A DNA stretch of 64,000 nt, taken from positions 32,001 through 96,000 of IMG/VR virus record IMGVR_UViG_3300023110_001943, one strand, 5' to 3'. The notes beneath the pieces are model-generated. The model saw only the letters and a list, made by a program, of their open reading frames with translations. It ran no database searches and was not told the DNA's origin. The first letter of the stretch is position 1. Each line of letters starts with the position of its first letter. This DNA comes from a virus. Shown here in pieces: positions 1,330 to 40,935 of the stretch. A program made the translations under genes and the position numbers.

Positions 1330-1363
1330 GACTTGTGTAATAAAAAAAGTTTTCGTATATTTG
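1330..1363 (+). promoter_or_regulatory. Bacteroidetes-type early promoter
   Basis: GACTTG-N20-TATATTTG. Confidence 0.8.
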
Positions 1364-1397: not shown

Positions 1398-1562
1398 ATG
1401 AGTGTTACAGAAAAAATTTATACTCAAGATGAGATTCAAGACCTTCTCACCGCTATCATTCACTTGGTAGATGACCTTAGTTGGGATTATGACCGACTGA
1501 GTTCAGGTGGAAAAGAAACTCTTGATAAACTACATGAACTTCTTGGAATAGAATGTCCGTAG
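1398..1562 (+). CDS. Small hypothetical protein (54 aa, MSVTEKIY...)
   Basis: Read manually; follows promoter with an A-rich leader. Confidence 0.6.
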   Translation: MSVTEKIYTQDEIQDLLTAIIHLVDDLSWDYDRLSSGGKETLDKLHELLGIECP

Positions 1563-1571
1563 TTAAAATAT

Positions 1572-1657
1572 GCCAGAGTGGTGGAATAGGTAGACACGAG
1601 GGACTTAAAATCCCTTGAACTGTAAAGTTCGTGCGGGTTCGATTCCCGCCTCTGGTA
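1572..1657 (+). tRNA. tRNA-Leu(TAA)
   Basis: Acceptor GCCAGAG/CTCTGGT, anticodon arm AGGGA-CTTAAAA-TCCCT, long variable arm, GTTCGATTC T-loop. Confidence 0.95.
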
Positions 1658-1664
1658 CACTCGA

Positions 1665-1788
1665 TGTGTGATGAGAGCAAGGATAACTCGGCTCCAAATG
1701 AGGAGGTAGCATCATACAAAACTGAGAAGGAGATGAAGAAACAGAAACGATTTCGGCTCCGCAAGAGTAAGGAGGTAGCCTTCTCAGT
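1665..1788 (+). ncRNA. Tandem pair of putative three-way-junction structured RNAs
   Basis: Two units share TCGGCTCC...GGAGGTAGC and have different but complementary closing stems (TGTGTGATG/CATCATACA; ACTGAGAAGG/CCTTCTCAGT). Confidence 0.6.
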
Positions 1789-1802
1789 ATTTTTTTTAAT
1801 AT

Positions 1803-1876
1803 GCACCCGTAGCTCAGTTGGATAGAGCATCTGCCTTCTAAGCAGACGGTCAAAGGTTCGAATCCTTTCGGGTGTA
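1803..1876 (+). tRNA. tRNA-Arg(TCT)
   Basis: Cloverleaf; anticodon arm TCTGC-CTTCTAA-GCAGA. Confidence 0.95.
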
Positions 1877-1883
1877 CAAAGAT

Positions 1884-1956
1884 GAATCCATAGCTCAGTT
1901 GGTAGAGCACCTCACTTTTAATGAGGGAGTCGTAGGTTCGAGCCCTACTGGATTCA
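1884..1956 (+). tRNA. tRNA-Lys(TTT)
   Basis: Cloverleaf; CCTCA-CTTTTAA-TGAGG. Confidence 0.95.
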
Positions 1957-1968
1957 CCCAAAGTATAT

Positions 1969-2042
1969 GGACTTGTAGCTCAGTTGGTTAGAGCAACCCG
2001 CTCATAACGGGTAGGTCATAGGTTCGAACCCTATCAGGTCCA
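1969..2042 (+). tRNA. tRNA-CAT, most likely tRNA-Ile2 (lysidine type)
   Basis: ACCCG-CTCATAA-CGGGT; paired G1-C72 and no GGG/CCC initiator stem; body resembles bacterial Ile2 tRNAs. Confidence 0.85.
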
Positions 2043-2154
2043 CCCATTCTAAATTCAAGAATACAGAAAATGATTACACTAATAATACTTTTTGTGATTA
2101 TGTGGACACTATATAAACTACCTCGACAATTATAAAAAATATATATTTATATGT

Positions 2155-12372: not shown

Positions 12373-12802
12373 AACTATCGTTCATTGAAATATTGTTTAA
12401 TTTAATAAAGAAAGAAAATTATGGAAACACTTTATATTGTTATAGGTGCATTCTCATCGATTTTTGTGTTCCTATTGGGGTACTCGGTGAGTGGTGTATT
12501 TAATGGTAAGAAAAAAGTAGATGACTTGGAAAAGTACATCGAAAGTACTGATATGAGAATATCAGAAGTAGAACGAGAATTAAGTCAAAGACTTGATAAA
12601 GAAATCGAAGATACACATCAAACATTTAGAGATGTAGAAATCGATTTAAGAAGTCAGTTAGATTCGAGACTGGATAAACTTACGAATCAAATTATAAAAA
12701 AGATTCCACCTACCAACGAAGAGTTGATAGAACGAATCAAAAAAATGGAAGAAGAATCTTATAGATTAAGAATGAATCTATAAGTAAATTAGAACGATAG
12801 TT
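12373..12802. repeat. Perfect 11-bp inverted repeat flanking ORF 12421..12783
   Basis: AACTATCGTTC (12373-12383) / GAACGATAGTT (12792-12802). Confidence 0.75.
12421..12783 (+). CDS. N-terminally membrane-anchored coiled-coil protein
   Basis: TM helix followed by a heptad-rich region. Confidence 0.7.
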   Translation: METLYIVIGAFSSIFVFLLGYSVSGVFNGKKKVDDLEKYIESTDMRISEVERELSQRLDKEIEDTHQTFRDVEIDLRSQLDSRLDKLTNQIIKKIPPTNEELIERIKKMEEESYRLRMNL

Positions 12803-26512: not shown

Positions 26513-26540
26513 AAAGAGGGGATGAAACTCCCCTTTTTTT
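26513..26540 (+). terminator. Intrinsic terminator
   Basis: AGGGGA-TGAAAC-TCCCCT followed by a T-run. Confidence 0.8.
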
Positions 26541-40465: not shown

Positions 40466-40496
40466 AAAAACCCAACTCAAAAAGTTGGGTTTTTTT
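40466..40496 (+). terminator. Intrinsic terminator
   Basis: AAAAACCCAACT/AGTTGGGTTTTT followed by a T-run. Confidence 0.85.
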
Positions 40497-40908: not shown

Positions 40909-40935
40909 AAAACCTCACTTCGGTGAGGTTTTTTT
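40909..40935 (+). terminator. Intrinsic terminator (UUCG tetraloop)
   Basis: AAAACCTCAC-TTCG-GTGAGGTTTTTTT. Confidence 0.9.

What the first reader, a model, noticed from the sequence alone, without database searches (positions are those of the whole stretch)
1665..1788. Tandem three-way-junction RNA between tRNA-Leu and tRNA-Arg
Unit 1 (1665-1718): TGTGTGATG-AGAG..CTC-GG-CTCC-loop-GGAG-GTAG-CATCATACA. Unit 2 (1721-1788): ACTGAGAAGG-AGAT..TTC-GG-CTCC-loop-GGAG-GTAG-CCTTCTCAGT. The cores (GAGA, TCGGCTCC, GGAGGTAGC) are identical while the closing stems and loops differ completely yet keep pairing, which amounts to built-in covariation. Unit 2 is followed by an 8-T run. Inference: a tandem aptamer, a protein-binding/antitermination element or a processing RNA controlling the downstream tRNAs. 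I do not recognise the family.
Basis: seen in the sequence. Interest (0 to 1): 0.72.

Follow-up and report, generated by a model that had tools for sequence, protein, structure and literature searches.

The report
Small folded RNA behind phage tRNAs
Two neighbouring copies of a small, uncatalogued folded RNA sit between two tRNA genes of an uncultured marine T4-like phage; the same RNA recurs behind tRNA or tRNA-like genes in one related phage lineage, and its function is unknown.

Summary
Units 1665-1718 and 1721-1788 (+ strand) lie between tRNA-Leu(UAA) and tRNA-Arg(UCU). They share GAGA, TCGGCTCC and GGAGGTAGC, and their closing stems differ in sequence but still pair. An 8-T run follows unit 2.

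No Rfam 15 family, tRNA model, cultured-phage record or bacterial genome matches. A covariance model built without unit 2 finds it at E 2.8e-7.

Metagenome scans gave 16 distinct sequences in two phage lineages (about 64% protein identity). Every copy starts 2-7 nt after a tRNA, a non-canonical tRNA-Gly-like gene, or another unit. Units occur singly, and close relatives join the same tRNAs with no element. This argues against an obligate tandem aptamer or a dedicated controller of the downstream tRNAs.

The closing stem P1 covaries. P3 never varies, and P2 is weak and fits better in a shifted register.

Best reading (about 0.5): an accessory small RNA cassette co-transcribed with tRNAs, cut out by tRNA-processing enzymes and sealed by P1. 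It is analogous to, but not homologous with, T4 rnaC/rnaD and E. coli 3'ETS-leuZ. The molecular target is unknown.

Unit 2 plus the T-run may also terminate transcription. Core invariance outside this window is partly circular, because homologues were fished with the exact core.

The parts
1351..1363 (+). Promoter-like motif TTTCGTATATTTG, the likely start of the transcription unit (small ORF, tRNA-Leu, units 1 and 2, three tRNAs)
   Evidence: Found 5 times on the + strand of the window against 0.03 expected. The same motif precedes the RNA arrays that hold the element in the second lineage. Promoter function is inferred.
1398..1562 (+). 54-aa ORF between the promoter-like motif and tRNA-Leu
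   Evidence: ORF list; no Pfam or PHROG match.
1572..1658 (+). tRNA-Leu(UAA), with no encoded CCA; unit 1 starts 7 nt after its discriminator base
   Evidence: ARAGORN and Rfam; sequence.
1665..1718 (+). Unit 1. P1 is 1665-1673 with 1710-1718. P2 is 1675-1677 with 1687-1689, or in the shifted register 1673-1675 with 1687-1689. GG is 1690-1691. P3 (CUCC/GGAG) is 1692-1695 with 1702-1705. GUAG is 1706-1709.
   Evidence: Sequence and fold; covariance-model score 78.6-83.5 bits; pair counts.
1721..1788 (+). Unit 2. P1 is 1721-1730 with 1779-1788. P2 (GAGAU/AUUUC, shifted register) is 1730-1734 with 1750-1754. GG is 1755-1756. P3 is 1757-1760 with 1771-1774. GUAG is 1775-1778. It contains UAAGGAGGU (1768-1776).
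   Evidence: Sequence; found at E 2.8e-7 by a model that did not include it. A competing local hairpin exists at 1770-1784.
1790..1797 (+). T8 run starting 1 nt after unit 2's P1; possible intrinsic-terminator tail or 3' end of the small RNA
   Evidence: One of only 16 runs of T>=7 on the + strand of the window; three others follow compact GC hairpins. A run of 6-8 T is kept in all unit-2 copies, and a T7 follows one unit-1 type copy (L318).
1803..2046 (+). tRNA-Arg(UCU), tRNA-Lys(UUU) and tRNA-Met(CAU) downstream on the same strand, with no promoter motif between them and unit 2

Best explanation
Units 1 and 2 are two diverged copies of a compact (about 50-66 nt) structured RNA cassette. Two lineages of marine T4-like phages carry it directly behind tRNA or tRNA-like genes.

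Shown: the motif is real, it lies on the + strand, it is absent from catalogues, its P1 covaries, it always abuts the 3' side of a tRNA(-like) gene or another unit, and it is gained and lost as single units.

Inferred: it is co-transcribed with the tRNAs from the TTTCGTATATTTG promoter. It is released when RNase Z or RNase E cuts behind the CCA-less upstream tRNA and RNase P cuts at the next tRNA. For unit 2, termination at the U-run may set the 3' end instead. P1 seals both ends against exonucleases. The conserved core then acts in trans, most likely as a binding site or decoy for a host or phage protein. That core comprises G-AGA, YUCGG, the CUCC/GGAG helix and GUAGC, and may form a loop-E-like non-Watson-Crick junction.

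In kind this resembles T4's stable RNAs rnaC/rnaD and E. coli's 3'ETS-leuZ spacer RNA, but it is not their homologue. The target is unknown.
For: The motif is statistically real. No Rfam or tRNA match was found.

There are 16 distinct sequences in two lineages. P1 has changes on both sides in 6 of 8-9 pairs; 0 of 500 shuffles reach the observed covariation score, and slid controls score far lower.

G-U pairs (P1 position 4 in unit 1, P2 in unit 2) fit only the + strand, which is also the strand of all flanking tRNAs and of the promoter motif.

Position rule: the element starts 7 nt after tRNA-Leu, 4 nt after tRNA-Leu (unit 2 alone, L290), 2-4 nt after tRNA-Gly-like genes (12 contigs), or 2 nt after unit 1.

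The cassette is accessory. 0, 1 or 2 units lie between the same tRNAs in near-identical phages, and it is absent from about 80 related viral records, including about 10 complete ones.

Unit 1 is 44/54 identical between lineages whose helicase and baseplate proteins are 64% identical.

A second tRNA-flanked insert in this window is closed by a perfect 11-bp stem 3 nt from each tRNA, so sealed inserts in tRNA arrays look like a habit of this phage.

Precedents: T4 rnaD and rnaC lie 1 and 6 nt behind tRNA-Arg and their roles are unknown (PMC3014915). [quoted passage not shown]
Against: There are no expression or end-mapping data, so processing and stability are inferred from position only.

The family is narrow and its members are close relatives. 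Independent covariation events are few: essentially unit 1 against unit 2, plus four variants of the outer P1 pairs.

P3 and the junction never vary, which gives no structural evidence for them. Among the metagenome hits that invariance is by construction, because they were fished with the exact core.

P2 is 3 bp, ambiguous, and not predicted by RNAalifold.

No candidate protein partner emerged. Only 7 ORFs are shared solely with the other element-bearing genome, and those annotated are an FkbM methyltransferase, a PspC domain and a MORN-like protein.

Folding z-scores are modest, about -2.2.
Confidence: 0.5

Rival explanations
1. Cis-acting intrinsic terminator or attenuator. Folding of unit 2 (P1 followed by A and U8) stops transcription before tRNA-Arg/Lys/Met, perhaps tunably (ligand, protein, or the competing hairpin 1770-1784). 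Unit 1 would be an accessory domain.
For: P1 of unit 2 ends 1 nt before T8, and T>=7 runs are rare (16 in 64 kb). Real terminators in this window use the hairpin-plus-T7 design. The T-run travels with unit 2 in all copies, and a T7 follows one unit-1 type copy directly before an ATG (L318). A mutually exclusive local hairpin exists. No promoter motif lies between the T-run and tRNA-Arg.
Against: Thirteen of 14 distinct unit-1 type sequences have no U-run. The closing stem spans a 48-nt interior, unlike the compact terminators of this phage. Efficient termination would silence three tRNAs that relatives express contiguously. The competing hairpin is not conserved in unit-1 types.
Confidence: 0.15
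2. Decayed remnant of a tRNA-like gene (acceptor-like P1, D-arm-like GAG..CUC, no T-arm). It would be kept only as a self-contained spacer that does not disturb folding and processing of neighbouring tRNAs, with no function of its own.
For: It lives inside arrays of non-canonical tRNA-Gly-like genes. By eye there are short resemblances to them: GAGUUGAGAGAAACUC against GAGAGUAAGGAUAACUC, and CGGCUCC in their T-arm. The other insert in this window is also merely stem-closed.
Against: Twenty-one core letters are identical between units 1 and 2 while the rest has diverged to about 28% identity with pairing kept, which indicates selection on the core. Unit 1 is far better conserved between lineages than their proteins. 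The tRNA models do not match.
Confidence: 0.12
3. New small self-cleaving ribozyme that trims the 3' trailer of the upstream tRNA(-like) RNA, playing the role theta (HDV-like) ribozymes play in gut phages.
For: It always lies within 2-7 nt of the 3' end of a tRNA(-like) gene. The phage tRNAs lack an encoded CCA. The element is small with a strongly conserved junction. Theta ribozymes set a precedent for tRNA-adjacent ribozymes (PMC10879173).
Against: No match to hammerhead, HDV-like, twister, pistol, hatchet or twister-sister models, even at E<=10. The 5' and 3' ends pair with each other, unlike the HDV-like fold. CUGAUGA occurs in one homologue only and there is no GAAA. Unit 2 behind unit 1 has no tRNA to process.
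Confidence: 0.08
4. Riboswitch-type ligand aptamer(s), working in tandem for cooperative control.
For: A junction-type fold with a conserved core and variable peripheral loops; tandem copies here; U-run after unit 2.
Against: Units occur singly in most contexts. There is no consistent expression platform or regulated gene: the downstream feature is a tRNA, a tRNA-like gene or an ORF. No known riboswitch model matches.
Confidence: 0.05

Closest known systems
Phage T4 stable RNAs rnaD (species 2) and rnaC (species 1)
   Same: Two small non-tRNA RNAs in tandem inside the tRNA cluster of a T4-type phage, 1 and 6 nt behind tRNA-Arg(UCU). They are co-transcribed with tRNAs and their function is still unknown (PMC3014915).
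   Different: No homology: the element model scores at most 4.7 bits on rnaC/rnaD. The T4 RNAs are 119 and 139 nt, and rnaC ends in a tRNA-like T-arm. The units here are 54-68 nt with a different fold.
E. coli 3'ETS-leuZ and other tRNA-spacer-derived RNAs
   Same: A short RNA (53 nt) excised from the trailer of a tRNA-Leu in a polycistronic tRNA transcript and acting in trans (PMC8166272). The element here also follows a tRNA-Leu, and unit 2 ends at a terminator-like U-run.
   Different: 3'ETS-leuZ acts by base pairing with the sRNAs RyhB and RybB through Hfq. No complementary target was found here, and the conserved part is a structured junction rather than a single-stranded seed.
Theta (minimal HDV-like) ribozymes next to phage tRNAs
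   Same: Small structured RNAs placed directly at the 3' end of phage tRNA genes (PMC10879173).
   Different: Theta ribozymes have a double-pseudoknot HDV fold and proven self-cleavage. The element has paired termini, no HDV-family match, and cleavage has not been tested.
Loop E / bulged-G (sarcin-ricin type) internal loops
   Same: From my own knowledge of that motif, GUA opposite GA (G42-U43-A44 against G11-A12 in unit 1 numbering) next to a Watson-Crick pair fits its signature. This would explain why GAGA and GGUAGC do not vary.
   Different: This is recalled resemblance only. It competes with P2 for the same GAG and cannot be tested with the tools at hand.

Membership tests
Any Rfam 15 family (4227 models) | Covariance-model score at or above the family's gathering threshold | tested here: not met
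   Only tRNAs pass in the window. At E<=10 on 1500-2100, nothing meaningful overlaps 1665-1788; the best are snoRNA-type hits at 10-14.6 bits against thresholds of 45-60. Homologue loci also give no hit.
tRNA | Cloverleaf with T-arm and 7-nt anticodon loop, detected by ARAGORN or RF00005 | tested here: not met
   ARAGORN and RF00005 call the four flanking tRNAs but not the units. The P3 loops are 6 and 10 nt, and there is no T-arm.
Hammerhead ribozyme | CUGANGA and GAAA core strands around a three-way junction | tested here: not met
   No RF00008 or RF00163 hit. The junction strands are A / GG / GUAG. CUGAUGA is present by chance in one homologue only.
HDV-like / theta ribozyme | Nested double pseudoknot with the 5' end in P1 pairing to an internal strand, plus self-cleavage | tested here: not met
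   No HDV-family hit. The 5' and 3' ends pair with each other. Self-cleavage itself cannot be tested here.
T4 rnaC / rnaD | Sequence and structure homology to the T4 RNAs | tested here: not met
   Model R2 on the T4 tRNA region with filters off gives a best score of 4.7 bits on rnaC and 3.6 bits across rnaD/rnaC.
T4 rnaC / rnaD (as a kind: stable RNAs embedded in a phage tRNA cluster) | Location within a few nt of tRNA genes on the same strand in a T4-type phage | tested here: met
Rho-independent terminator | Stable stem immediately followed by a U-run | tested here: inconclusive
   For unit 2, a 10-bp P1 is followed by A and U8, but the stem encloses 48 nt. The scan tool flags only the small alternative hairpin 1770-1784. 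Unit 1 and most homologues have no U-run.
Known riboswitch classes (purine, glnA, glycine, others) | Match to the aptamer model and a consistent downstream expression platform or gene | tested here: not met
   No model match. The downstream features vary.
tRNA-spacer-derived trans-acting RNA (3'ETS type) | Excision from a tRNA precursor and accumulation as a discrete RNA | not testable with these tools
   Only positional evidence is available; no transcript data.

The most novel reading that the evidence does not exclude
The element is a new functional RNA class of marine T4-like phages. One possibility is a self-cleaving ribozyme that matures the 3' ends of CCA-less phage tRNAs and tRNA-Gly look-alikes. 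The other is a tRNA-processing-released decoy whose invariant loop-E-like junction and SD/anti-SD-like CUCC/GGAGGU helix sequester a host protein, such as a ribosomal, RNA-decay or defence factor. In either case it would belong to a wider set of uncatalogued structured RNAs housed in phage tRNA-like 'RNA islands'.
Probability: 0.1. Interest if true: 0.8.

Novelty: new member of a known kind. Interest (0 to 1): 0.45.

Why it matters
Phage tRNA clusters are usually read as codon-usage aids. This case adds a defined, uncatalogued small RNA that travels as a cassette behind tRNA and tRNA-like genes, alongside other unclassified stem-closed RNAs in the same arrays. After 50 years the roles of T4 rnaC and rnaD are still unknown. 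A compact 54-nt relative-in-kind with a clear conserved core would be an easier handle for asking what such RNAs do: a binding partner, a ribozyme, or a terminator. On present evidence it is a narrow family with no demonstrated function.

Tried and rejected
- **Rfam:** scanned at gathering score and at E<=10 on the window and on homologue loci. No family matched.
- **tRNA or tmRNA reading:** ARAGORN does not call the units.
- **Hammerhead, HDV-like and other ribozyme classes:** rejected on core sequence and topology.
- **Homology to T4 rnaC/rnaD:** none.
- **Cultured phages:** blastn of 1660-1800 against 50,697 records gave no match.
- **Host origin:** the exact-core pattern in 185,579 bacterial and archaeal species genomes gave 69 hits. 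All are GC-rich chance matches without P1, the best at 27 bits.
- **IMG/VR pattern scans:** the only true homologue is one phage, seen twice as L034 and L124. The other hits lie inside coding sequence, for example a primase zinc-finger in L024.
- **About 80 related viral records searched with the models:** only G039 is positive.
- **Link to tRNA-Gly-like genes as an obligate partner:** rejected, because the window's own genome record has none in the 141 kb held.
- **Link to the 95-aa ORF that follows the element in the other lineage:** that ORF is absent from this genome and has no family.
- **Protein partner by presence/absence:** G000 and G039 were compared with G011, G042 and G046. Seven ORFs are shared only with G039, and none is RNA-related.
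- **Antisense target of GGAGGUAGC in the window:** none beyond chance.
- **Minus-strand RNA:** disfavoured by the G-U pairs and by context.
- **Coding reading:** ORF 1631-1825 crosses both units, but a contig lacking unit 1 cannot keep it. This is an inference.

Full report
**Observation**

The window is part of a 141-kb IMG/VR record of an uncultured T4-like phage, estimated 76% complete.

Both units have a closing stem of 9 or 10 bp. Both carry the blocks GAGA, TCGGCTCC and GGAGGTAGC. T8 lies at 1790-1797.

The units sit between tRNA-Leu(UAA) 1572-1658 and tRNA-Arg(UCU) 1803-1877, which is followed by tRNA-Lys and tRNA-Met.

The joint pattern occurs twice against 0.00 expected in shuffles. 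Folding energies are modestly better than shuffles, z about -2.2. A covariance model made from unit 1 and one foreign homologue, without unit 2, recovers unit 2 at E 2.8e-7.

Outside the shared blocks the two P1 arms agree at only 5 of 18 positions, yet both pair. This is hard to get by neutral drift after a duplication.

**Not a catalogued family**

Rfam 15 gives only the tRNAs at gathering score, and nothing meaningful over the units at E<=10. ARAGORN does not call them. No cultured-phage record matches.

**Relatives**

- Exact-core pattern scans of IMG/VR found one other phage, seen twice as L034 (107 kb) and L124/G039 (253 kb, complete).
After dropping identical copies, alignment A6 holds 16 distinct sequences: 14 of unit-1 type and 2 of unit-2 type.
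- A scan of 185,579 species genomes gave only GC-rich chance hits without P1.
- Model searches of about 80 viral records related by helicase (42-97% identity), about ten of them complete, found the element only in G039.
- G039 shares 64% identity with this phage in helicase and baseplate wedge proteins, while unit 1 is 44/54 identical.

The element is therefore rare, patchy and well conserved where present.

One caveat applies. The metagenome members were fished with the exact core, so their core invariance is by construction. The independent evidence for the core is the comparison of unit 1 with unit 2.

**Context rule**

In this phage's own lineage:
- Four contigs carry units 1 and 2 between tRNA-Leu and tRNA-Arg.
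- One contig (L290) carries unit 2 alone there.
- A relative with 95% identical helicase (G006) joins the two tRNAs with 7 nt and no element.

In the G039 lineage, a single unit-1 type copy starts 2-4 nt after a non-canonical tRNA-Gly(UCC/ACC)-like gene. That gene has a T-loop GGCRGYU, and one copy reaches 40.5 bits on the tRNA model. The element is followed either by a second such gene or, about 9 nt later, by the ATG of a 95-aa ORF of unknown family.

The same promoter-like motif (TTTCGTAT.TT.G) precedes both kinds of array. It occurs five times on the + strand of the window against 0.03 expected.

The shared feature is 'directly behind a tRNA(-like) gene, same strand, same transcription unit'. 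It is not the tandem arrangement, and it is not a particular downstream gene.

**Structure**

On 16 distinct sequences:
- P1 shows changes on both sides in 6 pairs. The covariation score is reached by 0 of 500 shuffles and is well above the slid controls.
- P3 (CUCC/GGAG) never varies, so it is uninformative.
- Shifting P2 by two, so that GAG pairs with CUC/UUC and extends to 5 bp in unit 2, gives 100% pairing.
- RNAalifold predicts only P1 and P3.

G-U pairs in P1 and P2 fit the + strand only.

By eye, and from my knowledge of loop-E / bulged-G motifs, GUA opposite GA could form such a motif in place of P2. This is untested.

**Mechanism**

The phage tRNAs lack an encoded CCA, so endonucleolytic 3' processing behind the discriminator base is expected. 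RNase P cuts at the next tRNA. An RNA lying 2-7 nt behind one tRNA and 6-14 nt before the next would be released with both ends sealed by P1.

The same window holds an ORF-bearing insert between tRNA-Glu and tRNA-Thr that is closed by a perfect 11-bp stem 3 nt from each tRNA. This suggests a general design in this phage.

T4 offers the closest precedent. Its rnaD and rnaC lie 1 and 6 nt behind tRNA-Arg(UCU) and their roles are unknown (PMC3014915), but they are not homologous to this element. E. coli 3'ETS-leuZ shows that tRNA-trailer RNAs can act in trans (PMC8166272).

I therefore favour a processed, trans-acting small RNA whose conserved junction binds a protein. The processing and the target are both inferences.

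**Terminator question**

Unit 2's P1 ends 1 nt before T8. Runs of T>=7 are rare (16 in 64 kb), and three clear terminators in the window use a compact GC hairpin plus T7. The T-run accompanies every unit-2 copy, and one unit-1 type copy (L318) is followed by GG+T7.

A terminator or 3'-end role for some copies is therefore plausible, and a competing hairpin (1770-1784) exists. However, most family members have no U-run, and strong termination would silence three tRNAs that relatives express contiguously.

**Other rivals**

- A ribozyme for tRNA 3' trimming has a precedent in theta ribozymes (PMC10879173). It fits the position but no known class.
- A decayed tRNA-like remnant fits the neighbourhood but not the conserved core.
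- A tandem riboswitch is contradicted by the single copies and the variable downstream features.

**Partner search**

Presence/absence profiling compared the element-bearing G000 and G039 with three complete relatives that lack it. Seven ORFs are shared only by the two carriers. Those annotated are an FkbM-type methyltransferase, a PspC-domain protein and a MORN-like protein; none is RNA-related.

The phage rarely uses Shine-Dalgarno sequences. This makes the UAAGGAGGU in unit 2 noticeable, but it remains unexplained.

**Verdict**

This is a real, uncatalogued small structured RNA cassette of phage tRNA arrays. It is a new member of a known kind. Its distribution is narrow and its function is unknown. 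Notes of this scan flag the same stretch from an overlapping window; that follow-up was withheld, so this report is independent.

Noticed in passing
L306, L325, L294, L291, L298, L313, L297 (flanks of the element); L341-L374: Non-canonical tRNA-Gly(UCC/ACC)-like genes (D-loop GAGAGAA or AAGAGAA, T-loop GGCRGYU, C35-C36-A37 kept, sometimes A33). They flank the unit-1 type element and occur as tandem pairs 77 nt apart in many IMG/VR contigs. ARAGORN misses them, and only one reaches the Rfam tRNA threshold.
   Followed up: partly
L343 (- strand, between its two tRNA-Gly-like genes); L368 5711-5859; L359; L358: A different stem-closed RNA insert between tRNA-Gly-like genes, of the form P1 - UGAAGAUUGAGAUAAAACCG..CUCAAG ... 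ACCGG - P1'. Its hairpin loop ACCG can pair with the downstream CGGU, forming a pseudoknot. No Rfam hit. The 5' end of T4 rnaD (AUGAGAAACCGGGUCGCUACCGGU) looks similar, which may hint at a wider rnaD-like family.
   Followed up: partly
window 12373-12383 and 12792-12802: A perfect 11-bp inverted repeat (AACTATCGTTC / GAACGATAGTT) closes a 120-aa ORF-bearing insert between tRNA-Glu and tRNA-Thr. It starts 3 nt (1 nt by ARAGORN's end) after tRNA-Glu and ends 2 nt before tRNA-Thr. tRNA processing would excise an mRNA with paired ends.
   Followed up: partly
window 1351, 9922, 31095, 36647, 61923 (+ strand): The motif TTTCGTATATTTG occurs 5 times against 0.03 expected, often immediately before an ATG, which suggests leaderless or short-leader mRNAs. 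Shine-Dalgarno motifs are rare upstream of ORFs (5 of 60 have GGAG) and GC content is 30%. This suggests a host that does not rely on SD, for example Bacteroidota.
   Followed up: partly
L344 and L325, upstream of their tRNA-Gly-like genes: The sequence CUACUGGUG.UAAUGUGAGAGUAGUA...GGUUCACAUU has interleaved complementary segments (CUACU/AGUAG and AAUGUGA/UCACAUU). This looks like an H-type pseudoknot RNA in the same arrays.
   Followed up: no
window 26518-26540, 40471-40496, 40913-40935: Three textbook intrinsic terminators, each a compact GC hairpin followed directly by T7, on the + strand.
   Followed up: no
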